From the NCBI GenBank assembly GCA_934702375.1, contig CAKUYE010000013.1, positions 1,564 to 65,563 of the forward strand: a DNA stretch of 64,000 bases. Direction: 5' to 3'. Position 1 is the stretch's first letter; the number at the start of each line of letters is the position of its first letter. A program made the translations under genes and the position numbers. Under the pieces are notes generated by a model. That model was not told the DNA's origin. It searched no databases and worked only from the letters and a program-made list of their open reading frames with translations. Shown one piece after another: positions 34,601-64,000 of this stretch. This stretch comes from an uncultured Bacillota bacterium. GTDB taxonomy: Bacteria > Bacillota > Dehalobacteriia > UBA7702.

Positions 34601-34623
34601 ATAAGAATAATCAAAGGAATTTT

Positions 34624-34845
34624 CCAAAGCTATGGAATAGAGGTGTGAATCCTCTGCGGTATGGCCACCGTGATGACGAGCTGCTTTTCTTCAATGCCAT
34701 TGATTTGAGTTGAGAAGGCGAAAAGCAGTATGGACTCTAAGTCGGGATACTTGCTTTGGCGGATTTGTGAGAGATGCAGCTGCCATATACAGTTGACATT
34801 CATGTTTCCGCAGAAGCAAAAAACGCTTTTGCGGCTTTTTGTTTC
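34624..34845 (+). promoter_or_regulatory. Cobalamin riboswitch (aptamer ~34624-34748 plus terminator ~34803-34845) heading the DUF4430/MoxR/lipoprotein operon
   Basis: P1 ccaaagc/gctttgg. AGGAA, GGTGtGAATCC, CGGTatgGCCACcGTgA, GCCAtTG, GAAGGCG and B12 box AAGTCGGGATACTTGC in canonical order. Then hairpin ccgcagaagcaaaaaacgcttttgcgg followed by ctttttgttt. Confidence 0.7.
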
Positions 34846-35071
34846 GATGTGAAACCATGAAATATGTGTGTGGCGGGAAGCGAAAGCTTTTGTGGTTCTT
34901 TGCAATGGCGCACACATTGTGTTCTGCCCGGCTTCGCACGGTGGGCAGACATCCGAAACCATAAAGGTGACTATTGGGTGGGTTCGTGCTTTTCGTACAA
35001 GGCCTGCTGCTTTTTGCTGTAAAGAATTAAATTTACCCCATGCTGTAGGATCGGGAGCTGAGGTGTTAAAA

Positions 35072-37207
35072 ATGAAAAAACCGGATTTTAAGAATATGTG
35101 GAAGGCAACGAAAAAGAAGTCTCTTCACCTGCGGAAGTCTTCGCTGTGGATGGGGGCGTTTCTCGTTGTCTTTCTTATTGTTTTAAGCTGCGGTGTACTC
35201 TTTGCCGGAGAATCGGAGCCGGAAAACCCCATTGGCGATAAAAGTGACAGTTTTGATACTGCATCGGTTATTATGAATTGCGAAAGCGATGAGGATGATA
35301 ATGTGTATGTTCCGGTGCCGGTGGCAACAGAGCCGGATCAATCCACGGAATCGGAACAATCCAGTTCCGGTGTAAACGGTCAGGAAGAACAGCAGCAGGA
35401 TCCCAAAGAAGAGGACTCTCAGCAGGAAGAACAGCAAACTCCGCCGGAGCAGGCTCCTCAGGAAGAAAAGATCACCAAGCCTGCGGCCTCGGCCCGCTCC
35501 GATAAAAACAACAATGCGGCTCCCAACGGAGGCGGCGGTACCAGCGGCGGCACAGACCCCAGCGGTGAAAAAGCCGATAAGGTCTATTTTACTACCGATA
35601 TTAAAGACGGTGAGGAAGTCACGGAAAAAGCCTATGCTTTTAAAGTTACCCATAAATATCCAGAATTAAAGACGACTAAATTTGTTGTTAAAGTGAACGA
35701 TATGGAAGTTCCTCAAGATAGTCTAACATCCTGTAAAGTGGAGCTTACAGAAGGTAAAAATACCATTCGGATTTCTGCAACCTACTTGGATTCTACCGGC
35801 AAGGTTGTCGCTACTCCGTATAAAGATTACACGGTTATTCTTAATACGAAGGACCTTGTAATCAATATTAATGGTCTTGAAGATGGGGCGGAGGTGGCTC
35901 AGTCTGGACTCTCATTTGAAGCTTCTGCATCGTATAAAAATACCAAGGCATCTCTTTCTGTTCAGTTAAATGGCAAAACAATCAAGTCTAAGGGAAATGG
36001 AAAATATGATGTTTGGCTCAATTCGGGAAAGAATACTTTTACCTTTGAGGCTTCCGGTGGCGGTTTAAAGAAAAAGGAAGAGCGTACTATCATCTATACT
36101 CCCTCTGGTGTGCCTACTGTAGAATTTTTATTCCCTGAGAAAATAGAGGACACCATTGAATTTGAGGTTCGTGTAACCGGTGTTCCCGCTTCAAAAGTGG
36201 AAGGTATTACTCTCACCAGTACTACCGCAAAGATTAATCTTATTGATAAAGATAAATCTACCGCTACATATCGTTACAAAGCTACTTTGAAAAATGGAGT
36301 AAATAAATTTTCCGCCCGCGTCAAATATGACGGGAATCTGCTGGTTCCCGTTATTAAAGAGGTTGAGTTAAAACGACCGTCGGCCGGTCCTGGGAATGAT
36401 CGTCCGAGCGGAGATCGTTCTCCGGTAATTACGGAAATTAATATTACCAATGGCATGGAAACAAACAGCAGTACCTTAAATATGCTTGTCCATGCGGTGG
36501 ACTATAAAAAGGCGAACTTGAATGCAAATAACATGACGGTGCTTCTCAATGGCTTGCAGGTTATGAATCCTTGGTTGAACAATGGCGCTATGACCTATGC
36601 GATGAGGTTTGCTTCCGGTGAAAACCTTGTGGAGATTTATCTGCGAGATAGCGAGGGGTATGAGGCGTATTACAAATATCAGGTTACGTACACCCCGGTT
36701 ACCGGCCCTGTTGGCAATGCTCTTGTTAGTGTGGAGGGCACTACTGTTGGTTTGGGATATATTATTCCGCCGACCTCGGTTCCCATTTACGATGATGAGC
36801 CTGCTTCCTATGTTGTCGATCGTCTGCTGAAGGAAAACGGTATTACCTATGATTATGGCGGGAGCTTTGACAATGGGTTCTATCTGCAGCGTATCTATAA
36901 GCAAGGCTTGATGGCAAACTTCTCTATTCCGGAAAGGCTTCGCCAATATATTGATGATTACGGTGTTTTCCTGGAAGAAAATAAATATGAACTGGATAGC
37001 TTGGGAGAAAAGGACTTTATCCCCTCGGGTTCCGGCTGGATGGTTGCTGTGGATGGACATTACACCGGCTACGGCTTCTCGGATATGCGGTTGACAGATG
37101 GTTCTGTTGTCAAGGTACGCTTTACTCTGTATATGGGTAAAGATATCGGTGATGACAGTGCAGCCTCGGAAGGCCAAACCTTCCCTGAAATTTTTGTGGA
37201 ACCCTGA
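35072..37207 (+). CDS. Large membrane-anchored surface protein: N-terminal TM anchor, acidic E/Q/D-rich linker, four ~90-aa Ig-like beta-sandwich repeats, C-terminal DUF4430 (transcobalamin beta-domain-like) domain
   Basis: MKKPDFKNMWKATKKK + hydrophobic helix. Low-complexity region about aa 60-170. Repeats with ...NG...G.N.. periodicity. C-terminus ...GSGWMVAVDGHYTGYGFSDMRLTDGSVVKVRFTLYMGKDIG matches the DUF4430 core. Start moved to ATG 35072 (RBS ggagctgagg). Confidence 0.7.
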   Translation: MKKPDFKNMWKATKKKSLHLRKSSLWMGAFLVVFLIVLSCGVLFAGESEPENPIGDKSDSFDTASVIMNCESDEDDNVYVPVPVATEPDQSTESEQSSSGVNGQEEQQQDPKEEDSQQEEQQTPPEQAPQEEKITKPAASARSDKNNNAAPNGGGGTSGGTDPSGEKADKVYFTTDIKDGEEVTEKAYAFKVTHKYPELKTTKFVVKVNDMEVPQDSLTSCKVELTEGKNTIRISATYLDSTGKVVATPYKDYTVILNTKDLVININGLEDGAEVAQSGLSFEASASYKNTKASLSVQLNGKTIKSKGNGKYDVWLNSGKNTFTFEASGGGLKKKEERTIIYTPSGVPTVEFLFPEKIEDTIEFEVRVTGVPASKVEGITLTSTTAKINLIDKDKSTATYRYKATLKNGVNKFSARVKYDGNLLVPVIKEVELKRPSAGPGNDRPSGDRSPVITEINITNGMETNSSTLNMLVHAVDYKKANLNANNMTVLLNGLQVMNPWLNNGAMTYAMRFASGENLVEIYLRDSEGYEAYYKYQVTYTPVTGPVGNALVSVEGTTVGLGYIIPPTSVPIYDDEPASYVVDRLLKENGITYDYGGSFDNGFYLQRIYKQGLMANFSIPERLRQYIDDYGVFLEENKYELDSLGEKDFIPSGSGWMVAVDGHYTGYGFSDMRLTDGSVVKVRFTLYMGKDIGDDSAASEGQTFPEIFVEP

Positions 37208-37233
37208 TAGGCTGCGAGAAAGGAACGAATGAG

Positions 37234-38187
37234 ATGAATCAGCAGGTAAATGATATATTAAATGAAATAAAAAAGGTTATTGTCGGGAAGGACGAAGTCA
37301 TTTCCAAGGTTTTTATGGCCATGCTCTCCGGCGGTCACATCCTTTTGGATGACGTCCCCGGGGTAGGGAAAACCACCTTGGCATTGTCTTTCAGCAAGGC
37401 TTTGGGGCTGGATTACAAGCGTGTTCAGTTGACTTCCGACAGCATGCCTTCGGATATCGTTGGTTTTTCCGTTTATGATAAGGAAACCGGCCGAATCGAA
37501 TATAAACCCGGCGCGGTTATGACCAACCTTTTCCTTGCCGACGAAATTAACCGTACCTCCAGCCGCACGCAGTCTGCATTGTTGGAGGTTATGGAAGAAG
37601 GCCATGTGACTGTGGACGGTGTGACCAGAGAGGTTCCCCAGCCCTTTGTTGTTATCGCAACCCAGAACCCGGTGGGGTCTGCCGGGACGCAGATGCTGCC
37701 CGATTCCCAGTTAGACCGTTTTATGATCCGTACTCAGATGGGATATCCGGATTTCCAAAGTCAGGTCAATATTTTGAAAGACCGCCATACCTCAAATCCT
37801 CTTAACAATGTGCAGCGGCTTACCGATGGCGAAGGGCTTCTTGCCTTGCGCCGTCAGGTTACCGATATTTACATCGCCGATGCGATCTATGAATATGTGA
37901 CCTCTCTTGCAGAGGCTACTCGTACCCATGAGCTGGTATTGCAGGGGCTTAGTCCCCGTGGGGCTCTGGCGCTTTGCCGCATGAGCAAGGCTTATGCTTT
38001 TGTGAATGGTCGGGACTATGTGATACCCGAGGATATCGCTGCGGTGTTCCCGGATGTTGTCGGTCACCGTTTGATGCTTCAGCCCAAAGCGCGCCTTACC
38101 GGTACTACTGCTGCAGACGTTACCGCAGACCTGATTCAGTCGGTGCCGATGCCGGTTACCGGAAAGGATGCAGTCCATGAAGGCTAA
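37234..38187 (+). CDS. MoxR-family AAA+ ATPase
   Basis: 317 aa. Walker A DDVPGVGKTT. Walker B/sensor (LFLADEINR). Single AAA+ module of MoxR size. Confidence 0.85.
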   Translation: MNQQVNDILNEIKKVIVGKDEVISKVFMAMLSGGHILLDDVPGVGKTTLALSFSKALGLDYKRVQLTSDSMPSDIVGFSVYDKETGRIEYKPGAVMTNLFLADEINRTSSRTQSALLEVMEEGHVTVDGVTREVPQPFVVIATQNPVGSAGTQMLPDSQLDRFMIRTQMGYPDFQSQVNILKDRHTSNPLNNVQRLTDGEGLLALRRQVTDIYIADAIYEYVTSLAEATRTHELVLQGLSPRGALALCRMSKAYAFVNGRDYVIPEDIAAVFPDVVGHRLMLQPKARLTGTTAADVTADLIQSVPMPVTGKDAVHEG

Positions 38188-39343
38188 TATCATTTGTACG
38201 GCAGTGGGGGCCGTCCTTCTGCTGGTATTGGCTGTTTTTTCTCAAAGCCTTATGCCGCTGCTGCTGATGGTGGCATTTCTCCTCCTTGTGGCAGGCTCCC
38301 TTGGTGTTCAGCGCCTTGGTGCGGCATCTCTTTTTGCCTCTTTTGAAATGGAGGAATTGGCGGAGAAGAATCAGTCCTTGAAAGGGCAGCTCATTATCTA
38401 TAACCGTGGCCGGATCCCATTTCCTGTAGTACGGGCTATCGTGGAAACGAACAATCTTTTGACGGGAGAAAAGACGGTCACACCGGTGCCGGTGGGGATT
38501 GGTCCTCGGGGCGCTGCGACATCGACTCTGACTTTTTCTTCAGCCTACTGCGGCCGACTTAAAGTGTCGGTATCGAAATTGAAAATTTATGATTTTTTCG
38601 GTTTGGTTTCTTTGCCGGTAAAGGTGGAGGGGAAAAAGAAAGCGTTGATCCTGCCGGAATTATACTGCCCCGATGTTGTTGTGGCCAAAAGCGGCGTTAC
38701 CGAGCCGGAGTGCGATTCCTTTTCGCCGTATAAAGCCGGGAATGATCCTTCGGAAACTTTTGCAATTCGCGATTACGAGCCGGGAGATTCCCTGCGCAGT
38801 ATTCACTGGAAGCTCACCGGAAAATTCGATCGTCTTGTGGTGCGTGAATCCAGTTTGCCGATGAATGAATCGGTATTGATTCTTTTTGAGCGAATGAAAA
38901 AAGATGACGAAGCTTTTGCTGCTCCGGAGGTTCGCAATGCTATGGGGCAGATCCTGCTCTCTCTCTCGAACCAGCTTGCCGAGATGAATCTTGCCCATAC
39001 CATTGGCTGGCTTCGGGCAGAAAATGGCACGTTTATCGGTCATCGGGTAGATTCTGAGGAATCCTTTCAATTGGTTATGGCGGAGGTTTTATCCGTTTCT
39101 GAAATTTCAGGAGAAGATGATACCGTTGAAGGCTTCTTGAAAACCAATGATCACGACAGCTATTCCAATATTGTATATGTAACTGCCCATTCCAGCGAAC
39201 ACCTTTCTTTGTTGCCGCTGATGTCGCGAAAAACGATGATCCTTTGTGGGAAGGAAGAAACAGACATTGACCTTGTTGATGGTACTGTGTACACAGTAAC
39301 GCCGGATAATTATGAAACGGTGCTGTATGAAATTTTGATTTAA
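38168..39343 (+). CDS. DUF58-domain protein (vWA-like partner of MoxR ATPases)
   Basis: N-terminal TM helices. Signature RDYEPGDSLRSIHWKLTGKFDRLVVRE. Overlaps the moxR stop. Confidence 0.75.
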   Translation: MQSMKANIICTAVGAVLLLVLAVFSQSLMPLLLMVAFLLLVAGSLGVQRLGAASLFASFEMEELAEKNQSLKGQLIIYNRGRIPFPVVRAIVETNNLLTGEKTVTPVPVGIGPRGAATSTLTFSSAYCGRLKVSVSKLKIYDFFGLVSLPVKVEGKKKALILPELYCPDVVVAKSGVTEPECDSFSPYKAGNDPSETFAIRDYEPGDSLRSIHWKLTGKFDRLVVRESSLPMNESVLILFERMKKDDEAFAAPEVRNAMGQILLSLSNQLAEMNLAHTIGWLRAENGTFIGHRVDSEESFQLVMAEVLSVSEISGEDDTVEGFLKTNDHDSYSNIVYVTAHSSEHLSLLPLMSRKTMILCGKEETDIDLVDGTVYTVTPDNYETVLYEILI

Positions 39344-41733
39344 TGAAGAAAAGAATGAAGTCTGAAAACTCAGCCGGCCTTACCGTAAGCTGTGAGGCTG
39401 CAATACAACAGAATAATTCGTTCTTGCGGTTGGATTTGATCGCTCTCTTTTGTCTCGGTGTTTTGCTTCTGATCTCTTTTGGCGGGTTACTGCTTTCGCT
39501 TTTTGAGATTTCGGCTTCCGGCATCGTGCTGATTCTGTGGGGAGCGGTATGCGTGGGAGGCTGCATTTCTTTTTATGCCTTCCCCGGGATACGCCGTTGG
39601 CTTTTGATCGGTGCTGTTGCTCTGATTGGAGCTTTGATTGTTTTTACCTGGGGTATGTTTAGCGATGGCTTTGGTCTTGTGGTCAATGCCGTAAAAGACT
39701 TCTTTGGGATTCGCCTCGGTCGAATTTTTCTTCCCACGGTGGTTTCCGGTCTTTATGGGAAAAAGATTGCGGCTACGGTCTTTTTATTGCCGCTGACCCT
39801 TGTTCTTGCCATTGTCAGCAGCTATCTTGTTTGTTGCCGCAGCAATATTTTATTGTGGCTTATTCTTCTTCTTACTGCTGCCGGATTGGTCTTTGGCTTG
39901 TCCTCTCCATCCTGGTATTGGTACGCCCTTGCATTTGCCGCCTTGCTTTTGGTGGTGATTTCTCGATTAAACGTGGTAGTGCCCGGCAGCGGCAAAGGTC
40001 TGCCGATGTTGCTGCTCATTTTACCTCTCCTTGCGGTGGTCGGCATCGTATCGGCATTACCCGCTTTGGGATTCTTTGGCGGTAGCTATGAACGCCCTGA
40101 GGTTTTTACGGCGCTTGAAGAATCCTGTGCAGGTCTTTGGGATCACCTGCGTTGGCCTGATGATACGACCAGCAATTTGCCGGAAGGACAGCGTGAGAAT
40201 ATGGAAACGCCGAATCTCACTGAGGAACCGGCCTTTGAAATCTCAATGTCATCTCCGGAATCGTTGTATCTTCGCGGCTTTGTCGGCAGCGTTTATACGA
40301 AGGACGGTTGGGAATCTCCGGATCCGCGAACTGTCTACGAGTATGCCGATACCTTTTATTGGCTTCATCAGGACGGATTTTACGGTACTTCTCAGCTCTC
40401 TGCTGCTGCAGCTGCTGCGGGTATGGACAATGGGGAAAATACCGTGTCCTTTCATTATTTGGGAGCCAAAGATAAGTATGTTTACACGCCCTATGAGTAT
40501 GAGAGTTCCGATGTAGGGAAGGCTTCCCTGCGGATTGGAGATATTGCGCCGTCGCCGAAGGACTATGGCCGGGCAGACACGATTACCTACACCATGAGCA
40601 ACAATTTGGTGCGGTCTGCGGCGGATATTGCCGATGCTCTTGCCAAGGTTGCGGAAAGCGGAGATCTTTCCGCAACCTCGTATCTTCAAGACGAAGCGGC
40701 TTATCGGGAATATGTGTATGCGACAAATTTAGATCTTTCCGATGAAATGAAGCTCCTGATGACCAGTGTATTGGGAGAAGTGAATACAAAGTCCGGTCAT
40801 CCGGATTATGATACGGTTATGCAATCGATTCTGGATGCTTTGCTAACGGAATATGTATACGATGATAGCTTCGAGCCTTCGAAGGATGCGGATATCGTTT
40901 CCGACTTTATGGAAAGCAGCGCCACAGGATACTCTGTGCAGTATGCTTCTACTGCAGCCTTGATGTTCCGTTATTATGGTATCCCTGCCCGCTATGTGGA
41001 AGGCTATATCGTTACTCCTTTTGATACTTTGGCGGTTGGTGCCGATGAGCCTATTACGATTACCGGGAAAAATGCTCATGCCTGGGTGGAATATTATCGT
41101 GACGGTGTCGGTTGGATTCCATTTGAAGTGACACCGCCGTATCTGTATATCATGCCGCAGCCGGATCATATCAAATCTTATGCCTCTGATATCTATGACC
41201 CGGAAACCAATCAACAGGGCATGACCAATATGGATGAAGATAATTATGAAGAGGAGCAGGAGCCGGACACTCCCAAGGATGATAAAAAGGCAATTCCTTC
41301 CTGGGCGATTGCGTTGATCGTCATCGGCAGCATCTTGCTTTTGATACTCCTGGCATTTCTCATTTTGGCAATACGGCGTATTCGCGTGATTGCCTCCCGT
41401 AAAAAAACAGTTTCGGAAATGGAGGATGGCGATGCCATTGATCGTTTGTTCCGGGATTCTTTGGAACTGTTGTATCGCGGTGGTTTGACACCGAGGAATG
41501 GCTCTCTGGATAACTATCGTGAGCCGTTGATGGCTTTTGGCGATAAAGAACTGGTAACTTTATACACCATGATGGTTGCGCTTCACCGAGAATCCCGCTT
41601 TAGTGATCATGGAATCTCACCGGAACGGCGAAAAGTCTTTGTCATGTTCCACCGTGAGGCAAAGAGATTTGTGAAGGCCCATGCCTCTTTCTGGAAGCGG
41701 TTTTGGGATCAGTATATCCGTAATATTTATTAA
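39343..41733 (+). CDS. Transglutaminase-like superfamily polytopic membrane protein (TgpA-like architecture) with non-canonical catalytic residues
   Basis: N-terminal approximately 7 TM. Core GYSVQYASTAALMFRYYGIPARYVEGY ... NAHAWVEYYRDGVGWIPFEVTP. A late TM helix plus cytoplasmic tail follow. Ser occupies the usual Cys position and Glu the usual Asp position. Confidence 0.65.
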   Translation: MKKRMKSENSAGLTVSCEAAIQQNNSFLRLDLIALFCLGVLLLISFGGLLLSLFEISASGIVLILWGAVCVGGCISFYAFPGIRRWLLIGAVALIGALIVFTWGMFSDGFGLVVNAVKDFFGIRLGRIFLPTVVSGLYGKKIAATVFLLPLTLVLAIVSSYLVCCRSNILLWLILLLTAAGLVFGLSSPSWYWYALAFAALLLVVISRLNVVVPGSGKGLPMLLLILPLLAVVGIVSALPALGFFGGSYERPEVFTALEESCAGLWDHLRWPDDTTSNLPEGQRENMETPNLTEEPAFEISMSSPESLYLRGFVGSVYTKDGWESPDPRTVYEYADTFYWLHQDGFYGTSQLSAAAAAAGMDNGENTVSFHYLGAKDKYVYTPYEYESSDVGKASLRIGDIAPSPKDYGRADTITYTMSNNLVRSAADIADALAKVAESGDLSATSYLQDEAAYREYVYATNLDLSDEMKLLMTSVLGEVNTKSGHPDYDTVMQSILDALLTEYVYDDSFEPSKDADIVSDFMESSATGYSVQYASTAALMFRYYGIPARYVEGYIVTPFDTLAVGADEPITITGKNAHAWVEYYRDGVGWIPFEVTPPYLYIMPQPDHIKSYASDIYDPETNQQGMTNMDEDNYEEEQEPDTPKDDKKAIPSWAIALIVIGSILLLILLAFLILAIRRIRVIASRKKTVSEMEDGDAIDRLFRDSLELLYRGGLTPRNGSLDNYREPLMAFGDKELVTLYTMMVALHRESRFSDHGISPERRKVFVMFHREAKRFVKAHASFWKRFWDQYIRNIY

Positions 41734-41772
41734 ATTGATTGATTTTAGCTAAGGTGTTTTAAGGAGGAAATC

Positions 41773-42774
41773 ATGAAAAGAAAATTATTTCTGCTGTCTA
41801 TCGCTTGCCTTTGCCTTGTTTTTGCACTTTGCGGCTGCGGCAGCAAAAGCGACAGTTCCGGGGATGGTGGGGCAGATACCACAACCTCTGCCGAGTTAAC
41901 GCCGGAATCCGCTCAAGCCGATGTTGCTGCGTACTTTAGCAGCCATAGTTCGGAATTGCTCACTGCCGGAGATGGTAGTGCAGATTGGGTTGTTATTGCC
42001 TATGCTCGCAGCGATTGCAAAGCTCCGGATAAGTTCTTTGACAAATTCTATGCTTTACTGGAACAGCAAGTTACGGAAGCCCAAGGGGTTCTCGATGATA
42101 CGAAATATACCGTATACTCCCGCTCGGTTCTTGCTTTGACAGCGATGGGGAAGGATCCTCATAATGTTGGCGGATATGATCTTTTAGAGCCGTTAGCCGA
42201 TGTTGATACCGTAGCTTCTCAGGGGTTGAACGGCTCGATTTGGGCCTTGCTGGCATTGAATTCCGGCCATTACACTCTGGAAAGCCGTCCCGATGCTGCA
42301 GAAAGTTATCTCAGCCTGATCCTTAACGGTCAGTTGGATAACGGTGGCTTTGCTTTGGGGGAAGGTGCCGATGCGGATATCGATATTACCGCCATGGCGT
42401 TACAGGCCCTTGCTCCCTATCAGGATCGCGAGGAGGTATCGGCTGCCATTGACCGCGGTTTGACGTACCTTAGTGAATCTCAGAGCGATGACGGAAGCTA
42501 CCTCTATTATGGTTCTGCAAATGCAGAAAGTATTTGTCAGGTCATTACGGCTGTTTCCTCTCTTGGCATTGGCATTGATGATGATCGTTTTGTGAAAAAC
42601 GGCAATACCCTGTTTGATGCTCTGATGGAATATCGTTTGGATGATGGTTCATATTTCCATACTGCGGAAATGAAAGAAACCAATCTTATGGCTTCGGAAC
42701 AGGCTTTTTATGCTCTGACTGCATTGATTCGAAATGAAAAAGGTGAATCTGCTCTTTATGCAATGGCAGACTGA
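41773..42774 (+). CDS. Lipoprotein with prenyltransferase/terpenoid-cyclase-like alpha/alpha-toroid repeats (transcobalamin alpha-domain-like)
   Basis: Lipobox LVFALCGC. Three Q/R-x-D-(N/D)-G-(G/S)-(F/Y) repeats (NGQLDNGGFALGEG, SQSDDGSYLYYG, YRLDDGSYFHTAE) plus GSIWALLAL and ITAMALQAL helices. Confidence 0.65.
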   Translation: MKRKLFLLSIACLCLVFALCGCGSKSDSSGDGGADTTTSAELTPESAQADVAAYFSSHSSELLTAGDGSADWVVIAYARSDCKAPDKFFDKFYALLEQQVTEAQGVLDDTKYTVYSRSVLALTAMGKDPHNVGGYDLLEPLADVDTVASQGLNGSIWALLALNSGHYTLESRPDAAESYLSLILNGQLDNGGFALGEGADADIDITAMALQALAPYQDREEVSAAIDRGLTYLSESQSDDGSYLYYGSANAESICQVITAVSSLGIGIDDDRFVKNGNTLFDALMEYRLDDGSYFHTAEMKETNLMASEQAFYALTALIRNEKGESALYAMAD

Positions 42775-42798
42775 TCACAGTAGAGGGGGGAATTTTCA

Positions 42799-43398
42799 AT
42801 GAGATTTAAAAAGGCTTTTGCTCTATTCCTTTTGATTGCGGTTTTGCCGATATTTGCGGCTTGCGGAACAATCACGACAAAAGATGCCGGAGAGTATAGC
42901 GATGATGTCGATGCCTATCAGACAGAACCGGTTCCCGAAGGGAAACCGAGTCCGGTAAATACGGAAGATCAGGAAATCGATAAAACGAAAGCCGGTACTT
43001 GTACTTTATCGGTAGAATGCAAGACGATTCTTGACAATATGACGAAACTGAAAAAGGAAAAGAAGGATATTGTTCCGGAAGACGGCATTATCTTCCCCAA
43101 GCAGGAAGTAACTTTTTATGAAGGGGAATCTGTTTTCGATGTTTTGCAACGCGAAATGCAGGATAATAAAATTCATTTGGAATTTGAATGGACGCCTCTT
43201 TACGGCTCCAGCTATGTGGAAGGTATCGCGAACCTTTATGAAATGGATTGCGGTGAGCTTTCCGGGTGGACATTTAGTGTAAATGGGTGGTTCCCCAATT
43301 ATGGTGCCAGTCGTTATATCGTTTCCGAAGGAGATGATATTCAGTGGCTGTATACCTGTGACCTTGGCAAGGATGTTGGCTCTACAATGGAGGAATAA
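42799..43398 (+). CDS. DUF4430-family lipoprotein (transcobalamin/intrinsic-factor beta-domain-like)
   Basis: Lipobox PIFAACG. ...GELSGWTFSVNGWFPNYGASRYIVSEGDDIQWLYTCDLGKDVG matches the DUF4430 core. Confidence 0.7.
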   Translation: MRFKKAFALFLLIAVLPIFAACGTITTKDAGEYSDDVDAYQTEPVPEGKPSPVNTEDQEIDKTKAGTCTLSVECKTILDNMTKLKKEKKDIVPEDGIIFPKQEVTFYEGESVFDVLQREMQDNKIHLEFEWTPLYGSSYVEGIANLYEMDCGELSGWTFSVNGWFPNYGASRYIVSEGDDIQWLYTCDLGKDVGSTMEE

Positions 43399-43466
43399 TT
43401 GGAGTTGCCTCTTGGGTGATTTTGTGATATGATGAATCATCGCATGGAAAGGACGGACAGCTTATT

Positions 43467-44405
43467 ATGGAACTGATACATGCTTTGTTTCACTCATCTC
43501 AACGTGGTCCCTTGACGTTGCAGGGGATTAAGGAATTGGCAAATATTCATTATTGGGCAGTTTCTATTATCCCTGTGTTGCTGGGATCTGCTCTGGCATA
43601 TACTGTTGGAAACAAATTTGACCTTCTGGTATTTGTACTTTTATTGCCGGCAGCGATTTCCATGCATTGCGTTGTAAATGCCTATAATCATTTATTTGAT
43701 TATTTGCGTGGGACCGATAGAGGGGAAGAAAAAAACAGCCCCCGTTATCCGATCCTTTATTATGGGATCAATCCTTTGTATGTGTTAATCCTTGGTGTTG
43801 TATACCTGTTTCTTGCTTTTGTGCTGTCCTTTTATGTCGTATTGCAGGCCGGCTGGCCTTTGTTGATGATTGGCGCTGTGGGGGCATTTATTGCGGTGTT
43901 TTACTCCGGAGGCCCATTCCCCCTGGCACACTATCCTTTGGGGGAATTTGCCAGCGGCACGGCCATGGGAGGGCTGATTCCTTTTGCGGTATATTATGGC
44001 ATGACCGGTTCTCTGGATTGGATCATTTTGGTATATACATTGCCAATGATCTTGACCATTGGTATCCTTTGTTTTATCAATAATATTTGCGATATTGAAA
44101 AGGATTCAATTAATCGCCGAACTTTGCCAATATTGATTGGCCGCCCTCTTTCGTCAACATTATTTCGTGTAGGGTACGGGCTAACATGGATTTGCGCGCT
44201 TCTCATTTCTGTGCTTTGTTTTACCAAAGGCTGTTGGATATTAATCTTAAGCTTGGTTCTTGCCTGGAAAAAACTTCGGGAGCTTTTCCGTATGAATTAT
44301 ACTCCGTCAACCCGAAATATAGTGATTCCACTGTATGCTTCCACGATTCCTATCTTGAATGTAGGATATACGATTGCGATTTTATTACAGGGATTGCTCC
44401 ATTAG
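43467..44405 (+). CDS. UbiA-superfamily (MenA-like) integral membrane prenyltransferase
   Basis: 312 aa, 8-9 TM. First Asp-rich motif NAYNHLFDYLRGTD (NxxxDxxxxxD). Second acidic region NICDIEKD. Ends with a TAG stop. Confidence 0.6.
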   Translation: MELIHALFHSSQRGPLTLQGIKELANIHYWAVSIIPVLLGSALAYTVGNKFDLLVFVLLLPAAISMHCVVNAYNHLFDYLRGTDRGEEKNSPRYPILYYGINPLYVLILGVVYLFLAFVLSFYVVLQAGWPLLMIGAVGAFIAVFYSGGPFPLAHYPLGEFASGTAMGGLIPFAVYYGMTGSLDWIILVYTLPMILTIGILCFINNICDIEKDSINRRTLPILIGRPLSSTLFRVGYGLTWICALLISVLCFTKGCWILILSLVLAWKKLRELFRMNYTPSTRNIVIPLYASTIPILNVGYTIAILLQGLLH

Positions 44406-58837: not shown

Positions 58838-58870
58838 CAAAGCTTCCTTTGGGGAGCTTTGATTTTTTGT
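58838..58870 (+). terminator. Rho-independent terminator after the flippase gene
   Basis: caaagcttcctttggggagctttg followed by attttttg. Confidence 0.55.
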
Positions 58871-58926
58871 TGCGTTTTTCTTTTGGCCGTGATATAGTGG
58901 ATATAGTAATCTGCCGGAGGTGCAAA

Positions 58927-60834
58927 ATGGACAGACGCAGAGAGTATTTAGAAGAGAGATTAAAAGAGGCAGAGGCGAAGATTAAGGCTCAAAATCAGGT
59001 GATACGAAATTTAGAATTACGAAAAGAGCAGTACGATTCTATCTTGGAAAGTATGTCTGAGCTTGTTGAGAGAACCGATCCGAACCTTAATCTTATTTAT
59101 GTTAACAAGGCATTGTCTGATTTTTACGGTGAAACACCGGAAAGTATGATTAATACAGATACCATGAAGCTTGTATGTCAAGAGGACCATGATGCGATTT
59201 ATGAAATGATGCGAAATATTACTGTGGATAGTCCCCATTACAAATATGAGTATCGTGTAAATATTAACGATCGGATTTATTGGATGGAAAGCGTTGGTCG
59301 TGGGTTTTATGATGAGGACGGGGAAATAATAGAATATCAGGATGTCAGTCGTGATATTACCCATTTTAAAAACTTAGAGGAACAATTAAAATATCTTGTT
59401 GATATGCAAACAAAAAAATTGCAGGCAAGTAATTCGGAGCTACAACAAGTAAATAACTATTTGCATAGTATTTTATCCAATATTTCCGAAGGGATTTTAG
59501 TAATTAACAAGAATGGAGAGTGTGAGTTCTTAAATTACGGCCCTAAGGATTTATGGAAGCACGCCAGCCAAGATATCAGTATATATTTTAAGGAATTATT
59601 AAATGATAAAAAGAGTAATGTAATCAATTGGATGTTTTTTAAAAAGCGACCGTTTTTCGATGCTGAGATGCACTTTGTTTCTCGGCGACGCGATCTTTTT
59701 TTTGTCGTTTCAGGAATGCCTCTTGATACCGGTGACGATATGGTGGAAAAAAGTATATTGGTTTTAAAACCGGTTACTCAGGTACGTAAGATGGTAACTC
59801 AAATGAGTGGGAATCAAGCACGTTTTCACTTTAAAGATATCATTACTATCAGTCAAAAGATGCAGGATGATATTTATTTGGCAAAGCAAGCCGCAATGAG
59901 TGATTGTAATGTTTTAATTGAAGGGGAGAGCGGTACCGGTAAGGAGCTTTTTGCCCAAAGCATTCATAATGCCAGCTTACGTCAGAATGGGCCATTTGTT
60001 GCGGTGAATTGTGGTGCGCTGCCTCGTGAGTTAGTTGCCAGTGAGCTGTTTGGTTATGCAGAGGGTTCTTTTACCGGTGCAAAAAAAGGAGGTAAACCCG
60101 GGAAATTTGAACTTGCTGATGGAGGCACTTTATTTCTCGATGAGATTGGAGATATGCCATTGGATCAGCAGATTGCTTTGTTACGAGTGATTCAAGAGCG
60201 CTGTGTTACCAGGGTTGGCGGCAATCGCAATATTAATGTTGATGTCCGCATAATTTGTGCAACGAATCGTGATCTTCAGCGGGAAGCCAAAGAGAAGAGC
60301 TTTCGTGAGGATCTTTATTATCGATTGAATGTCATTAGTATTCATGTTCCGCCGTTGCGGGAGCGAAAAGATGATATTATGCCGCTATTCTGCTCTTTTT
60401 GGGCAAATGTTACCGGTGGAAAACCGGAAGATTTTTTATCGTTATTGCAGCCTGAGGTCATTGACGTGTTGTTGCGCTATGATTATCCGGGTAATGTCAG
60501 AGAGTTGCAAAACGTAGCAGACCGTATGGTATATCTTTCCGACGGCGATGAAATCACCATGAAATACCTGCCTCAACATATTATAGATTCCGTTGTTGAA
60601 GTGCAAAATGCTTTAGCTGTAGTAGAAGATGTTTCGACGGATTTTGTTTCTCCGGAAACATCTTTGCCCACGATCACCGATGTACGTCAGCGTAAACAGA
60701 AACAGATTCTTTTGCAGCAGCGGCAGGAACTATTGCTGGCATTGGAAAAGGAAAATGGTAATATTGCAGCAGCTGCTCGTCGTTTGGGTGTTTCGCGGAC
60801 AACATTTTATCGAAAGCTGGATCTTACCGAATGA
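58927..60834 (+). CDS. Sigma-54-dependent transcriptional activator (enhancer-binding protein) with N-terminal coiled-coil/PAS sensor region and C-terminal HTH
   Basis: AAA+ sigma-54 interaction domain (ESGTGKELFAQSIH, GAFTGA-like ESFTGA, ELFGYAEGSFTGA). C-terminal Fis-type HTH (LGVSRTTFYRKL). RBS ggagg. Confidence 0.85.
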   Translation: MDRRREYLEERLKEAEAKIKAQNQVIRNLELRKEQYDSILESMSELVERTDPNLNLIYVNKALSDFYGETPESMINTDTMKLVCQEDHDAIYEMMRNITVDSPHYKYEYRVNINDRIYWMESVGRGFYDEDGEIIEYQDVSRDITHFKNLEEQLKYLVDMQTKKLQASNSELQQVNNYLHSILSNISEGILVINKNGECEFLNYGPKDLWKHASQDISIYFKELLNDKKSNVINWMFFKKRPFFDAEMHFVSRRRDLFFVVSGMPLDTGDDMVEKSILVLKPVTQVRKMVTQMSGNQARFHFKDIITISQKMQDDIYLAKQAAMSDCNVLIEGESGTGKELFAQSIHNASLRQNGPFVAVNCGALPRELVASELFGYAEGSFTGAKKGGKPGKFELADGGTLFLDEIGDMPLDQQIALLRVIQERCVTRVGGNRNINVDVRIICATNRDLQREAKEKSFREDLYYRLNVISIHVPPLRERKDDIMPLFCSFWANVTGGKPEDFLSLLQPEVIDVLLRYDYPGNVRELQNVADRMVYLSDGDEITMKYLPQHIIDSVVEVQNALAVVEDVSTDFVSPETSLPTITDVRQRKQKQILLQQRQELLLALEKENGNIAAAARRLGVSRTTFYRKLDLTE

Positions 60835-60855: not shown

Positions 60856-60935
60856 AACGAACCGCATATGTTCCGAATATGTTGCAAATATGTTCTGTTA
60901 AAACGTTTTAGGAACATATTTGGTTCACAAAGAGT
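60856..60935 (+). promoter_or_regulatory. Cluster of ATATGTTC/GAACATAT repeat motifs (candidate enhancer/UAS for the sigma-54 activator)
   Basis: Three direct copies (gcATATGTTCcg, aATATGTTgc, aATATGTTCtg) and one inverted copy (gGAACATATtt) 120-190 bp upstream of the sigma-54 promoter. Confidence 0.45.
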
Positions 60936-61048: not shown

Positions 61049-61064
61049 TGGCACGCTCTTTGCA
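61049..61064 (+). promoter_or_regulatory. Sigma-54 (-24/-12) promoter: TGGCACG-N4-TTGCA
   Basis: tTGGCACgctctTTGCAtt about 160 nt upstream of the mttB-like start codon. Confidence 0.7.
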
Positions 61065-61222
61065 TTATATAAAGGCATAAGGAACAAAAGCAACAAGGGA
61101 TTCATGAAACATCGATGAAGTTGTTGAGAACTGCTATTGTTGTCATTGGAAAGCTATTCGTTGTATAAATTTAGTTTGTTATTGGATTTATCCAAAATAA
61201 TAAAAAAAGAGAGGTACAATTG

Positions 61223-62701
61223 ATGAGAAGAAACATTTCTTGTGGGCGTGGCCTTCTTTCCGGCTTCAGCCTAAACGTTTTCTCCGAAGAAGAGTGCGAA
61301 CGAATTCACCTTGCGTCACTGGAGTTATTGGAAACGACCGGTATTTTTTGCGAAAGCGATCGTGCCATCGAAATTTACGAGGCAGGAGGTTGCCGCATTG
61401 ATCACGACAAGAAAAGAGTGCATATTCCTGCTTGGTTAGTAGAAGACTCTGTTCGTAAGGCTCCGCCCAGAGTTTTAATGGCCGGCCGTGATCCTCAAAA
61501 TGATGTTGTTTTGGAAAGTGGTCGAGTAAACTTCCTTACCTTTGGTCAGGGGATCAATGTTATCGATCCTTATAGCGGTGAACGTCGTCCTTCCGTAAAA
61601 CAGGACGTTGCCGATGTTGCTCGTCTTGTTGATGCGCTTCCTAACGTAGATGTTATTGAAGATACTCTTTATTGCAGTGACAAAGACGAAAGAGTCGCCA
61701 CCCTCCATAATGCGGAAGCCACTCTTACGAATACCACCAAACATCAGAGTCAGGGGGCAGACAGTGCCCATCAGGCAAAGCTCTGTATCGAGATTGCTGC
61801 TGCCATCGTCGGCGGTAAAGATAAATTAAAATCTCGTCCGATTATTTCCGGCGGTGGTTGCCCTGTAAGTCCTCTTACTCTTCCTAAGGGCAACACTGAG
61901 CAGCTTATTGAATATGCATCGGCCGGTCTTCCCTGTAATCCTTTGTCTATGGCCATGGCAGGTGGCTCTACTCCTGTTACTCTAGCAGGTACGTTGACCG
62001 TTCACAATGCTGAAATTATTTCCTATATCGTGTTGATTCAGCTTGTAAATCCCGGTAATCCTTGTACCTATGGCAGTTCTACAACTGCAATGGATCTTCG
62101 TCGTGCCGTTGCATGCGTAGGTTCTCCTGAACTTGGTATGATTTCCGCTGCTGTTGCCCGTATGGCTCAGTTCTATAAGATCCCCAGTTTTGTGGCAGGT
62201 ACCTAGGCAGACAGTAAATTGTCTGACATTCAAGCAGGACACGAAAAAACATTAACAGCCATGTTGCCGGCGTTGGCAGGTGCCAACCTCATCTACGGGC
62301 TGGGTATGTTAGAATCCGGTATTACTCTGGGCTATGGCCAGATGGTTATGGACAATGAATTTGCCGGTATGATTCGCTATGCTCTTCAGGGTATTCCTGT
62401 AAATGACGAAACTCTCGATGTTGATTCTATTATTCGTGTTGGTCCCGGTGGCAATCATCTTACCGAACCCAACACCGTTTCCAAAACTAGAGGTTATCAA
62501 TCCACTCCCAAATTTATTGATCGTAATTTGATGGATAATTGGCTCCTTGAAGGTGGCGTAGATTTCAAGACCAAGTGTGATGAAGAAGCAAGACGTATTC
62601 TCGAAACGCATCAGGTAACTCCTGTATCGGAATATGCTGTCGGTACCATTCGTGAAATCATTGAAAAAGAAGAACGCGATCTTGGCATCAGTCAATCTTA
62701 A
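61223..62701 (+). CDS. mttB: MttB-superfamily (trimethylamine-type) corrinoid methyltransferase interrupted by a single in-frame UAG at 62204-62206 (candidate pyrrolysine codon)
   Basis: ORFs 61220..62206 and 62219..62701 are in the same frame, separated only by TAG. Combined length is about 493 aa. Both halves are MttB-like (N-terminal ...IHLASLELLETTGI..., C-terminal ...LIYGLGMLESG...). The UAG is at codon 328, against Pyl334 in archaeal MttB. RBS gagagg. Confidence 0.6.
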
Positions 62702-62778
62702 TCATGTGACTATCTGTATGTTTTATGTTCGGGCGGGTTTTCCCGCCCGAAATAATTACTTTGAAAGGAGTTGCTCCA

Positions 62779-64000
62779 ATGGCAGATACAACTTCTCAGG
62801 CAAAAAAACTCAGTTCAGTGGATTTGTTTTTAGGTATTATTGTTCTTATGCTGTTTCTTGATTCTGGGACAGCCTCCTCTGCAATGGGGATTAGTTCAAT
62901 TACGTGGTATTTGATCCTCGGCATAATTTTCTTTTTGCCTATGGCTCTGATTACGGCAGAGCTTGGCTCAACTTATCCTTCTGACGGCGGTCTGTATCAT
63001 TGGGTAAAAATTTCTCTTGGTGCAGATAACGCAGCCAGAGTCACCTGGTATTATTGGTTAAATAATGCAGTTTGGGTTGCCTCCGCTACGATTTTCGTCA
63101 TGGACGTTGTTCGGCAAATGTTAAACTTGCTTTTTGGAATAGAAGTTTCTTTTTTCCTTTATTTGGCTTTTTCCTGTATTTTAGTGTGGGTTTATGTATT
63201 GATGGCAACCCAACCTCAAAATGAATCTACCGCCGTTCGAAACCTTGGTGGTATTGCAAAATTGACAATTGTCGCAGCAATGATTTTATGCGCCATCTGT
63301 TATCTGGTAAAGAGTGGCGGGGAGACTGCAACCGCTTTTACAGTTACAGAGTTTAAACCGACGATAGGGGCTGCTTTTGCCTTTTTCCCCGCTTTAATTT
63401 ATAACGTTATGGGTTTTGATGCCATTAGCTCGATTGGTGGCAGCAATATTAAAAATCCGGCAAAGGATTTGCCGCGAATGATCCTCTTAAGTTTGGTTAT
63501 AATCATTGCCGTCTATGTTCTGTTTACTTTGGCGATGTGTATTGTTACGCCCTACGAAGAAATTGATATCATTAATGGGATTTTGAATATCTTTATTATC
63601 ACTTTTCCCGGCGGCCTTGGTACTGTTCTGTACGTTCTTATTGGTGTTATTTTCCTGTACACTTTGATGTCACAAGGTCCGGCTTGGCTTCAGGCTGCTG
63701 GCTATATGGCAGTAGAAGCTGCCTCTGATGAAAACCGTGAACTTCCCAAAGTTTTTGGAACCGTGACGAAAAAAGGTGCGCCATTGGGGAGCATTGTGAT
63801 TATCGGTATTGTGAGTACGGTGTTGATTATTGCTTACGGTCTTCTTGCCTCTTTTGTCGGAGGTACTGCAAGTGATTTATTCTGGACTTTATTCTCTTTC
63901 ACTTCTTTGATTTTCCTTCTGCCGTTTATTATGTGTTGTTCCGCTTTTATGAAGCTGAGGAAAAACGATGGGAAAACTCAACGAGGATATCGTTTCCCCG
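62779..64000 (+). CDS. APC-superfamily permease (amino acid/organocation transporter), 3' end beyond window
   Basis: RBS aaaggag. Open frame to the window end (more than 400 aa) with about 11 hydrophobic helices. Absent from the ORF track because no stop is reached. Confidence 0.65.
   Translation, partial: MADTTSQAKKLSSVDLFLGIIVLMLFLDSGTASSAMGISSITWYLILGIIFFLPMALITAELGSTYPSDGGLYHWVKISLGADNAARVTWYYWLNNAVWVASATIFVMDVVRQMLNLLFGIEVSFFLYLAFSCILVWVYVLMATQPQNESTAVRNLGGIAKLTIVAAMILCAICYLVKSGGETATAFTVTEFKPTIGAAFAFFPALIYNVMGFDAISSIGGSNIKNPAKDLPRMILLSLVIIIAVYVLFTLAMCIVTPYEEIDIINGILNIFIITFPGGLGTVLYVLIGVIFLYTLMSQGPAWLQAAGYMAVEAASDENRELPKVFGTVTKKGAPLGSIVIIGIVSTVLIIAYGLLASFVGGTASDLFWTLFSFTSLIFLLPFIMCCSAFMKLRKNDGKTQRGYRFP

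What the first reader, a model, noticed from the sequence alone, without database searches (positions are those of the whole stretch)
61223..62701. In-frame amber codon at the canonical pyrrolysine position of an MttB-family corrinoid methyltransferase
A single TAG (62204-62206) interrupts an otherwise continuous 493-codon frame. Both flanking segments are MttB-like, and the total length equals that of trimethylamine methyltransferase MttB. The UAG falls at codon 328 of 493, against Pyl334 of 495 in archaeal MttB. Non-Pyl homologs (MtgB, MtcB, MtpB) have a sense codon there. A random nonsense mutation hitting exactly this site is improbable. This argues for pyrrolysine-dependent trimethylamine (or related quaternary amine) demethylation, feeding methyl groups to a corrinoid protein. 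That in turn explains the heavy investment in B12 synthesis and scavenging in this region. Only 3 of about 52 CDS in the window use TAG as their stop codon, which fits an amber-suppressing host.
Basis: partly seen in the sequence, partly recalled or inferred. Interest (0 to 1): 0.82.

Follow-up and report, generated by a model that had tools for sequence, protein, structure and literature searches.

The report
Pyrrolysine-type trimethylamine methyltransferase gene (mttB)
This is a working bacterial gene for trimethylamine methyltransferase (MttB) whose in-frame UAG sits exactly where the rare amino acid pyrrolysine is inserted; the kind of gene is well known, and what is new is only its host, an uncultured gut and digester Firmicutes lineage.

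Summary
Frame 61223-62701 (+) holds one in-frame TAG (62204-62206, codon 328) and ends at TAA. The TAG aligns residue for residue with Pyl334 of Methanosarcina barkeri MttB (PDB 7XCL).

It is not a nonsense mutation or an assembly error:
- The same TAG is kept in 13 of 13 related lineages (GC 41-58%, down to 42% protein identity), while the true terminator varies (TAA, TGA, TAG).
- dN/dS is the same before and after the TAG (0.042 and 0.044).
- The residues directly after the TAG are conserved.
- The read-through product passes NCBIfam's equivalog cutoff for the Pyl-type enzyme (651.6 bits, cutoff 525).
- It keeps the residues that support Pyl chemistry (Gly110, Met249, Tyr364, Gly372).

The gene lies behind a perfect, conserved sigma-54 promoter. 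A PAS-domain sigma-54 activator sits upstream and an APC-family permease downstream.

Not shown:
- No pylT, pylS or pylBCD and no mttC or ramA are in the window or within 10 kb of mttB in relatives. The lineage's pyl genes could not be located.

TAG ends 5 of 51 genes (10%, ordinary), not 3 of 52. The B12 synthesis cluster is real but about 37 kb away.

Verdict: a new member of a known kind, of modest interest.

The parts
58849..60834 (+). Sigma-54-dependent transcriptional activator (bEBP) with an N-terminal PAS sensor, an AAA+ sigma-54 interaction domain and a Fis-type HTH. Public gene calls start it at 58927 (635 aa).
   Evidence: Pfam Sigma54_activat 6.3e-71, PAS_9, PAS_3 and HTH_8. The best NCBIfam match is PrdR, but below its cutoff. 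The same gene sits upstream of the TAG-mttB operon in relatives.
60859..60926 (.). Cluster of repeated ATATGTTC / GAACATAT motifs (direct and inverted), 125-190 nt upstream of the -24/-12 element. Putative activator binding sites (inferred).
   Evidence: the repeat finder families I2, I3, I5 and D2. Similar repeated ATGTATC-type motifs lie at the same distance in relatives. Binding was not tested.
61049..61064 (+). Sigma-54 promoter (-24/-12): TGGCACgctctTTGCA, 174 nt upstream of the mttB ATG.
   Evidence: It is the only zero-mismatch match to TGGCAC-N5-TTGCW in the 64-kb window. A match with 0 or 1 mismatches is present at the head of the operon in 9 relatives. No sigma-70-like promoter is found on the + strand of this spacer.
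61209..61214 (+). Ribosome-binding site GAGAGG, 8 nt before ATG 61223.
   Evidence: Read directly from the sequence.
61223..62203 (+). mttB, codons 1-327. This is the part public gene callers annotate alone as a 327-aa 'trimethylamine methyltransferase family protein'.
   Evidence: Pfam MTTB 9.4e-52. The exact protein is in public assemblies. It contains Gly108 (=Gly110) and Met243 (=Met249).
62204..62206 (+). In-frame UAG, codon 328, the inferred pyrrolysine codon (equivalent to Pyl334 of M. barkeri MttB).
   Evidence: It aligns with X334 of 7xcl. TAG is invariant in 13 of 13 lineages, while the terminal stop is TAA in 8, TGA in 4 and TAG in 1.
62207..62701 (+). mttB, codons 329-492 plus the TAA stop. 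It contains Tyr358 (=Tyr364) and Gly366 (=Gly372).
   Evidence: Pfam MTTB 4.2e-25, profile positions 341-499. dN/dS is 0.044 against 0.042 for the N part. The residues directly after the UAG (ADSKLSDIQAGHEKT) are conserved.
62204..62303 (+). Match to Rfam PYLIS_3 (RF02510, 'pyrrolysine insertion sequence mttB'). It is a sequence signature of Pyl-type mttB, not a demonstrated RNA structure.
   Evidence: 77.8 bits against a gathering score of 38, with model position 1 on the TAG. Seven model pairs are non-canonical in this sequence. RNAalifold on 9 relatives finds no covariation support; the covariation term is +0.58.
62730..62749 (+). GC-rich hairpin CGGGCGGG-TTTT-CCCGCCCG between mttB and the permease gene, with no T-run after it. 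Its role is unknown.
   Evidence: Read from the sequence. The terminator scan does not call it.
62779..64000 (+). APC-superfamily permease gene, cut by the window end (470 aa in the same species' contig L001). Likely the substrate importer of the operon (inferred).
   Evidence: Pfam AA_permease_2 2.5e-36. NCBIfam gives only weak GadC/YjeM-like matches, far below cutoffs. One or two such permeases follow TAG-mttB in all relatives examined.

Best explanation
The locus encodes a full-length (492-residue) pyrrolysine-type trimethylamine:corrinoid methyltransferase, MttB. Ribosomes read the UAG at codon 328 as pyrrolysine, using a tRNA-Pyl/PylS pair and pylBCD genes encoded elsewhere in the genome (inferred, not seen). 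By analogy with M. barkeri MttB, the Pyl imine binds and activates trimethylamine, helped by the conserved Tyr358/Gly108 water network. One methyl group then passes to the Co(I) of a corrinoid protein that is also encoded elsewhere. When UAG is read as stop, only an inactive 327-residue fragment results. The gene is co-transcribed with an APC-family permease from a sigma-54 promoter. That promoter is switched on by the adjacent PAS-domain enhancer-binding protein, so expression is probably substrate-controlled. The host belongs to an uncultured Firmicutes lineage found in chicken, rumen, human-gut and digester metagenomes. Its relatives are labelled 'Peptococcaceae bacterium UBA7702' and 'Candidatus Cryptoclostridium obscurum'. 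The host makes its own cobalamin.

Shown: gene integrity, the position of the UAG, selection on the downstream part, family membership, and the promoter and activator architecture.
Inferred: Pyl as the inserted residue, TMA as the substrate, the permease's cargo, and the identity of the activator's signal.
For: The UAG aligns with Pyl334 of 7xcl. NCBIfam TIGR02369 'trimeth_pyl' (equivalog) scores 651.6 bits against a cutoff of 525, whereas the lineage's neighbouring non-Pyl paralogues score 241-271. The equivalents of Gly110, Met249, Tyr364 and Gly372 are conserved in all TAG-type relatives and absent from the neighbouring non-Pyl paralogues (residue roles from PMC9842639). TAG is kept in 13 of 13 lineages spanning 41-58% GC, with synonymous sites saturated (pS 0.76-0.87), while the real terminator varies. 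dN/dS is 0.042 before the TAG and 0.044 after it. No internal start is conserved: gene callers place the second ORF at different positions, giving 143-160 aa, and the 15 residues directly after the TAG are conserved. Rfam PYLIS_3 matches from the TAG onward at 77.8 bits. A perfect sigma-54 promoter is conserved in relatives. A full anaerobic cobalamin pathway lies in the same window. PylS is documented in related Firmicutes, including Dehalobacterium sp. and Ca. Formimonas.
Against: No pylT, pylS or pylBCD were found in the 64-kb window or in the 10-kb flanks of 13 related loci. ARAGORN did find tRNA-Pyl in four control pyl loci. I could not locate this lineage's PylS in the databases. No corrinoid protein (MttC), RamA or MtbA-like gene is adjacent here, unlike most described mtt loci. 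Thr111 of the archaeal enzyme is Gln or Glu in this clade. The closest full-length homologues outside the clade (52-53% identity) are non-Pyl proteins with Trp, Ala or Ser at the site, closer than M. barkeri MttB at 41.7%. Substrate identity is therefore inferred. TAG still terminates 5 ordinary genes in the window, so decoding must be partial or regulated.
Confidence: 0.8

Rival explanations
1. A pyrrolysine enzyme with a different substrate. The clade's Pyl-MttB demethylates another tertiary amine, for example the dimethyl product left by the non-Pyl MttB-family enzyme encoded immediately upstream in most relatives. Together they would form a two-step quaternary-amine demethylation pathway fed by the APC permease.
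For: In 9 or more related lineages the TAG gene directly follows one or two non-Pyl MttB paralogues in the same sigma-54 operon and precedes amino-acid-type APC permeases. Identity to the characterised archaeal enzyme is only 41.7%. Thr111 is replaced by Gln or Glu.
Against: The protein passes the curated TMA-methyltransferase equivalog cutoff. The residues around Pyl are conserved. In the window's own species the upstream non-Pyl paralogue is absent from the operon. As far as I recall, the methanogen TMA permease MttP is itself described as APC-like (not checked here).
Confidence: 0.1
2. The UAG is decoded, but not as pyrrolysine. A conventional amber suppressor tRNA or near-cognate read-through would insert a standard amino acid.
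For: No pyl genes could be tied to this lineage. Close non-Pyl homologues function with Trp, Ala, Leu or Ser at the site.
Against: If a standard residue sufficed, a sense codon would be expected to replace TAG in at least some of the 13 lineages with saturated synonymous sites; none has done so. The Pyl-specific Tyr364 partner is retained. Amber suppressors of this sort are not known as stable traits in Firmicutes (general knowledge).
Confidence: 0.05
3. A split gene. The UAG is a real stop, and a 327-aa N fragment and a roughly 160-aa C fragment, started at an internal codon such as TTG 62219, are made separately and assemble.
For: Gene callers annotate two ORFs. Both parts are under purifying selection, which a two-piece enzyme would also show.
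Against: The stop is always TAG, never TAA or TGA, although the genuine terminator of the same gene varies. The four codons between the TAG and TTG 62219 (ADSK), and the residues after it, are conserved at the protein level. The putative internal start is not conserved: second-ORF lengths are 143-160 aa. The break falls exactly on the catalytic residue of the family.
Confidence: 0.03
4. A pseudogene or an artefact: a recent nonsense mutation or a sequencing error in a non-Pyl mttB homologue.
For: None beyond the presence of a stop codon.
Against: The TAG is identical in four independent assemblies of the same species and in 12 other lineages. dN/dS is 0.044 downstream of it. There are no frameshifts or further stops.
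Confidence: 0.01

Closest known systems
Methanosarcina barkeri MttB (trimethylamine:corrinoid methyltransferase, Pyl334; PDB 7XCL/7XCM/7XCN; PMC9842639)
   Same: Same length class (492 aa against 495 aa) and the UAG at the homologous position. Gly110, Met249, Tyr364 and Gly372 are conserved. PDB match E 1.1e-112.
   Different: Only 41.7% identity. Thr111 is Gln here. The host is bacterial. No adjacent mttC corrinoid protein gene. Expression is from a sigma-54 promoter under an enhancer-binding protein.
Bacterial Pyl-type mttB loci (Desulfitobacterium hafniense, Acetohalobium arabaticum, Bilophila wadsworthia; and the loci L035, L039, L045 fetched here)
   Same: In-frame UAG in mttB in a bacterium that keeps TAG as an ordinary stop elsewhere. 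Corrinoid-dependent methylotrophy.
   Different: In L035, L039 and L045, pylS sits beside TAG-split methylamine methyltransferase and corrinoid-protein genes. L035 and L039 also carry pylB, pylD and tRNA-Pyl, and L035 carries RamA. In the window's clade none of these is within 10 kb of mttB.
Gut bacterial Pyl-mttB catalogued in MAGICdb (Borton et al. 2023, mBio, PMC10653893)
   Same: That study recovered amber-containing mttB from gut MAGs outside Bilophila and methanogens: 407 genomes in seven genera, including Emergencia and an Anaerovoracaceae genus. It noted that gene callers truncate these genes.
   Different: No entry of the class Dehalobacteriia was seen in the stored (truncated) supplements; 'Peptococcia' entries exist, but the two passages shown were CutC genes, and I did not check the rest for mttB. 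That paper does not examine pyl genes or operon structure.
Non-Pyl MttB-superfamily methyltransferases (MtgB, PDB 2QNE, glycine betaine; MtcB, MtpB, MtyB)
   Same: Same TIM-barrel family (Pfam PF06253). Paralogues of this type lie next to the TAG gene in relatives and 4 kb downstream in this species.
   Different: They have a sense codon (Leu in MtgB) at the Pyl position and lack the Tyr364, Met249 and Gly372 equivalents. They are 24-32% identical to the window protein and score below the TIGR02369 cutoff.

Membership tests
Pyl-type MttB ([trimethylamine--corrinoid protein] Co-methyltransferase, NCBIfam TIGR02369 equivalog) | Whole-protein score above the curated equivalog cutoff | tested here: met
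   651.6 bits against a cutoff of 525 for the read-through product. Adjacent non-Pyl paralogues score 241-271 bits.
Pyl-type MttB | In-frame UAG at the position homologous to Pyl334 of M. barkeri MttB | tested here: met
   The phmmer alignment to 7xcl places the X of the query on X334. Rfam PYLIS_3 model position 1 falls on the TAG.
Pyl-type MttB | Conserved Pyl-activating and corrinoid-contact residues (Gly110, Tyr364; also Met249, Gly372, Thr111) | tested here: met
   G108, Y358, M243 and G366 are present. Thr111 is Gln (Glu in some relatives). PMC9842639 describes Gly110 and Tyr364 as fully conserved.
Pyl-type MttB | The UAG is translated, so the downstream part belongs to the same protein | tested here: met
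   Indirect evidence: dN/dS is equal on both sides, TAG is invariant in 13 of 13 lineages, and the residues straight after the TAG are conserved. No protein-level data.
Pyl-type MttB | The residue inserted is pyrrolysine, and the enzyme methylates a corrinoid with TMA | not testable with these tools
   Needs mass spectrometry and an enzyme assay.
Pyrrolysine-decoding organism | pylT (tRNA-CUA) and pylS in the same genome | tested here: inconclusive
   Absent from the 64-kb window and from 10-kb flanks in 13 related loci, with positive controls detected. Database searches for the lineage's PylS failed.
Pyrrolysine-decoding organism | pylB, pylC and pylD biosynthesis genes | tested here: inconclusive
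   None among the Pfam-annotated genes of the window or flanks.
Canonical mtt operon (mttB with mttC corrinoid protein, permease, RamA activase) | Adjacent B12-binding corrinoid protein gene | tested here: not met
   No PF02310/PF02607 protein in the window or in flanks of the close clade. It is present only in the 55%-identity relative L014-L016. The partner must be encoded elsewhere.
Sigma-54-dependent operon | -24/-12 element TGGCAC-N5-TTGC upstream, plus a cognate enhancer-binding protein | tested here: met
   A perfect match at 61049-61064, unique in the window and conserved in relatives. The adjacent activator has Sigma54_activat, PAS and HTH_8 domains. rpoN itself was not seen, as it lies outside the window.
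PYLIS RNA element (Rfam RF02510) | Conserved RNA secondary structure downstream of the UAG | tested here: not met
   The score is high (77.8 bits), but 7 model pairs are non-canonical here and 9 relatives show no covariation support. The match reflects conserved coding sequence.

The most novel reading that the evidence does not exclude
In this clade the Pyl-MttB is not stand-alone TMA salvage. It would be the second step of a sigma-54-controlled, permease-fed pathway in which the adjacent non-Pyl MttB paralogue removes the first methyl from an imported quaternary amine and the pyrrolysine enzyme demethylates the resulting tertiary amine. That would be a substrate other than TMA for a Pyl enzyme. 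A second, less likely reading is that the lineage keeps a Pyl-dependent gene with its pyl genes dispersed or partly missing, as hinted by the absence of any linked pyl, mttC or ramA genes.
Probability: 0.1. Interest if true: 0.7.

Novelty: new member of a known kind. Interest (0 to 1): 0.3.

Why it matters
Bacteria that consume TMA with a Pyl-dependent MttB remove a metabolite linked to cardiovascular risk, and they compete with methanogens for methylamines in guts and digesters. This locus adds an uncultured Firmicutes lineage to the candidate TMA consumers; relatives are found in chicken, rumen, human-gut and digester samples. In public records its mttB is annotated only as a truncated 327-aa 'family protein', so it would be missed by standard pipelines. 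The conserved sigma-54/PAS-activator control and the mtxB-mttB-permease layout give testable handles on regulation and substrate. Beyond that, the biology of amber-encoded pyrrolysine in MttB is established.

Tried and rejected
1. Looking for pyl genes.
- ARAGORN on the window found only tRNA-Ser (two) and tRNA-Arg.
- tblastn with D. hafniense PylSc (my recalled sequence, validated against PDB 3dsq) found nothing in the window or in the 34 loci held at that point. ARAGORN on 24 of those loci found no tRNA-Pyl.
- I then tried to identify the lineage's PylS in the protein databases. I looked for a cluster as prevalent as the MttB cluster (145 contigs, longest 1,011,719 bp).
- The D. hafniense query returned 5156 hits, and the top 120 were all at least 64% identical to it; none fitted.
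- A search centred on Dehalobacterium sp. PylS also found none.
- The 50%-identity representative search gave about 25 full-length PylS clusters. Twenty were inspected by cluster membership and four by genomic context.
- All four contexts carry pylS next to pyl or TAG-split methylamine methyltransferase genes, three of them with tRNA-Pyl. They come from other organisms (GC 0.43-0.68; their MttB, where one is present, is 44-48% identical).

2. Genome collection scan.
- I used the single scan on the MttB N part, hoping to name the organism. The window's own genome is not in that collection. Six related species were found.

3. PYLIS.
- The strong Rfam hit looked like independent RNA evidence. The alignment shows many non-canonical pairs, and relatives show no covariation. 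I rejected it as structural evidence.

4. TAG scarcity as a sign of an amber-suppressing host.
- Recounted as 5 of 51 and rejected as uninformative.

5. My first guesses at taxonomy.
- I considered Negativicutes (from the SLH and Wzy genes) and Anaerovoracaceae (from MAGICdb).
- The record titles of relatives do not support either: they read Peptococcaceae bacterium UBA7702 and Ca. Cryptoclostridium obscurum.
- From memory, UBA7702 is an order of the GTDB class Dehalobacteriia. This was not verified here.

6. Literature.
- Searches for this lineage together with pyrrolysine found nothing.
Full report
**Observation.** Frame 1 of 61223-62701 (+) reads 327 sense codons, TAG at 62204-62206, then 164 sense codons and TAA. 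A GAGAGG ribosome-binding site lies 8 nt before the ATG. Pfam MTTB (PF06253) matches both parts in register: profile positions 31-336 and 341-499. A phmmer search against PDB puts M. barkeri MttB first (7xcl/7xcm, E 1.1e-112). It aligns the TAG with X334, the pyrrolysine: 'SFVAGTxADSK' against 'SYVAGSxSDAK'. The glycine betaine enzyme MtgB (2qne) has Leu at that position.

**Is it a broken gene?** No.
- The exact 327-aa product, followed by the same TAG and an open 164-codon continuation, occurs in four independent ENA metagenome assemblies.
- A database search found many homologues of 327-328 aa at 91, 90, 84, 81, 74, 73, 67, 66 and 55% identity. In a 120-sequence alignment all 21 proteins of 327-328 aa end at precisely this column, and the full-length homologues carry A, W, L, P, G and other residues there.
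- I fetched the DNA of 12 further lineages. Every one has TAG at the homologous codon and an open frame of 163-177 codons after it.
- Their GC content ranges from 0.41 to 0.58. The genuine terminator of the same gene varies: TAA in 8, TGA in 4, TAG in 1.
- Against the 91% relative, dN/dS is 0.042 upstream and 0.044 downstream of the TAG, with dS about 1.5-1.9. In more distant pairs synonymous sites are saturated (pS 0.76-0.87) while pN stays at 0.18-0.33 on both sides.
- The residues straight after the TAG (ADSKLSDIQAGHEKT) are nearly invariant. No internal start is conserved: gene callers give second ORFs of 143-160 aa.

These data exclude a pseudogene or sequencing error. They argue strongly against a two-piece enzyme and show that UAG specifically is under selection.

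**Family membership.**
- The read-through product scores 651.6 bits on NCBIfam TIGR02369 'trimeth_pyl' (equivalog; cutoff 525). The lineage's neighbouring non-Pyl MttB paralogues score 241-271 bits.
- PMC9842639 identifies residues that support Pyl chemistry and corrinoid contact. Gly110, Met249, Tyr364 and Gly372 are conserved in the window protein and in all TAG-type relatives. Thr111 is Gln or Glu. The neighbouring non-Pyl paralogues and MtgB lack these residues.
- Identity is 41.7% to M. barkeri MttB and 31.8% to MtgB. It is about 52% to a group of full-length homologues that carry Trp, Ala or Ser at the Pyl position.
- In a rough neighbour-joining tree, Pyl-type and such Pyl-replaced sequences interleave. 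This suggests repeated exchange between UAG and sense codons in this subfamily.

**Rfam.** PYLIS_3 (RF02510) matches 62204-62303 at 77.8 bits, starting on the TAG. Seven model pairs are non-canonical in this sequence, and nine relatives give no covariation support. I treat the hit as a nucleotide-level signature of Pyl-type mttB, not as evidence for an insertion structure.

**Genomic context and likely regulation.**
- Upstream (58849-60834) lies a sigma-54 enhancer-binding protein with a PAS sensor.
- The spacer contains TGGCACgctctTTGCA at 61049-61064. It is the only perfect match to the -24/-12 consensus in 64 kb. A match with 0 or 1 mismatches sits at the head of the operon in nine relatives.
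- Repeated ATATGTTC-type motifs lie 125-190 nt further upstream, at the usual distance for activator sites. Binding is inferred.
- Downstream, after a GC hairpin with no T-run, comes an APC-superfamily permease.
- In relatives the conserved module is: activator, one or two non-Pyl MttB paralogues, TAG-mttB, then one or two APC permeases.
- In the window's species the upstream paralogue is missing. A non-Pyl MttB with a GntR regulator lies about 4 kb downstream on the other strand.
- No corrinoid protein, RamA or MtbA-like gene is nearby in the close clade. Only the 55% relative has B12-binding proteins adjacent.

**The pyl genes.** None is in the window: ARAGORN finds only tRNA-Ser (two) and tRNA-Arg. 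No PylS homologue was found in the window or in the 34 loci held at that point, and no tRNA-Pyl in the 24 of them scanned. ARAGORN does find tRNA-Pyl in four control pyl loci. I tried hard to find this lineage's PylS in the protein databases and could not. The control loci show what linked bacterial pyl clusters look like: pylSn-pylSc-pylB-(pylC)-pylD, tRNA-Pyl, TAG-split mtbB/mtmB/mttB, corrinoid proteins and RamA. In one Firmicute the pyl genes sit among housekeeping genes, far from any methyltransferase. Unlinked pyl genes are therefore not unusual. Whether this genome has them remains the one decisive untested point.

**Organism.** The window's own genome is not in the species-representative collection. 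The nearest representatives are:
- Candidatus Cryptoclostridium obscurum (91%)
- an uncultured Peptococcaceae bacterium (90%)
- rumen MAG RUG14212 (90%)
- Peptococcaceae bacterium UBA7702 (81%)
- a digester Clostridiales MAG (81%)

NCBI names the 91% protein 'MAG TPA: trimethylamine methyltransferase family protein [Firmicutes bacterium]', truncated at 327 aa. From memory, UBA7702 is an order of the GTDB class Dehalobacteriia, whose cultured relatives (Dehalobacterium, Ca. Formimonas) carry PylS. That placement was not verified here.

- TAG ends 5 of 51 genes (CbiG, CbiD, a UbiA-family gene, a GT2 and an ADH), not 3 of 52. About 10% is ordinary for bacteria. The in-frame extensions after these stops are 10-30 codons. 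This is neither evidence for nor against amber suppression, and it shows that TAG still works as a stop.
- The B12 investment is real. A complete anaerobic cobalamin pathway with hem genes, cbiMNQO and cbiK occupies 2485-24294 under two cobalamin riboswitches. It lies about 37 kb from mttB, separated by sbcCD, S-layer and cell-wall polysaccharide genes. The connection is metabolic plausibility only.

**What is known.** Amber-encoded Pyl in MttB is textbook in methanogens and documented in several bacteria. Borton et al. 2023 (PMC10653893) catalogued Pyl-mttB in gut MAGs beyond Bilophila and noted the truncation problem. I found no paper on this lineage. I therefore classify the finding as a new member of a known kind. 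Its minor new aspects are sigma-54 control, the mtxB-mttB-permease module and unlinked accessory genes. The most novel reading still open is that the clade's Pyl enzyme acts on a tertiary amine other than TMA, in series with the adjacent non-Pyl paralogue. I give that about 10%.

Noticed in passing
window 34610-34772 (+) and genes 34868-44405: A third cobalamin riboswitch (53.5 bits) precedes an operon of mostly unknown function. It comprises a 779-aa protein with no Pfam match, a MoxR AAA+ ATPase, a 391-aa protein, a 796-aa transglutaminase-like protein, a 333-aa protein, a DUF4430 protein and a UbiA prenyltransferase. From memory, DUF4430 is related to the cobalamin-binding domain of transcobalamin-like proteins. 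This may be a corrinoid acquisition or remodelling system.
   Followed up: partly
window 19082-19277 (-) and 19425-19557 (+): Two divergent cobalamin riboswitches sit back to back. One controls the 16-gene cbi/hem operon on the - strand (2485-18846). The other controls cbiM-N-Q-O-cbiK on the + strand (19664-23176).
   Followed up: partly
homologues P0005, P0009, P0011, P0013 etc.: The closest full-length relatives of this Pyl-type MttB (52-53% identity, closer than archaeal MttB) have Trp, Ala, Ser or Leu at the Pyl position. They keep Gly110, Met249 and Gly372, and often Tyr364. One of them (Ser) groups with a TAG-type sequence in a rough tree. This suggests repeated replacement of UAG by sense codons, or the reverse, and their substrates are unknown.
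   Followed up: partly
L035-L038 and L039: Two unrelated bacterial pyl clusters show pylS-pylB-pylD in a row with no pylC (ATP-grasp) gene between pylB and pylD or elsewhere in the fetched flanks. L035-L038 also have pylSn; no pylSn-sized gene is called beside pylSc in L039. Another cluster (L043) has the usual pylB-pylC-pylD.
   Followed up: no
L013 (GCA_040766505.1, JAXGQJ010000004.1): Most housekeeping genes in this relative's contig are called as short fragments (dxr, ispG, proS, the POR subunits), which looks like frameshift-rich long-read assembly. The TAG-mttB and its neighbours are nevertheless intact.
   Followed up: no
window 62730-62749 and 62661-62764: A perfect 8-bp GC hairpin (CGGGCGGG-TTTT-CCCGCCCG) sits between mttB and the permease gene, with no T-run after it. 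The region gives a sub-threshold L20_leader match (32.9 bits against 58.7). It could be an intercistronic stabiliser or attenuator.
   Followed up: no
L005-L012 upstream flanks: In the 91% relative, the region just upstream of the activator gene differs between assemblies. Some carry integrase and SpaA-adhesin genes; others carry phage tail, holin and HicAB genes, next to a tRNA-Val. The operon therefore borders an integration hotspot.
   Followed up: no
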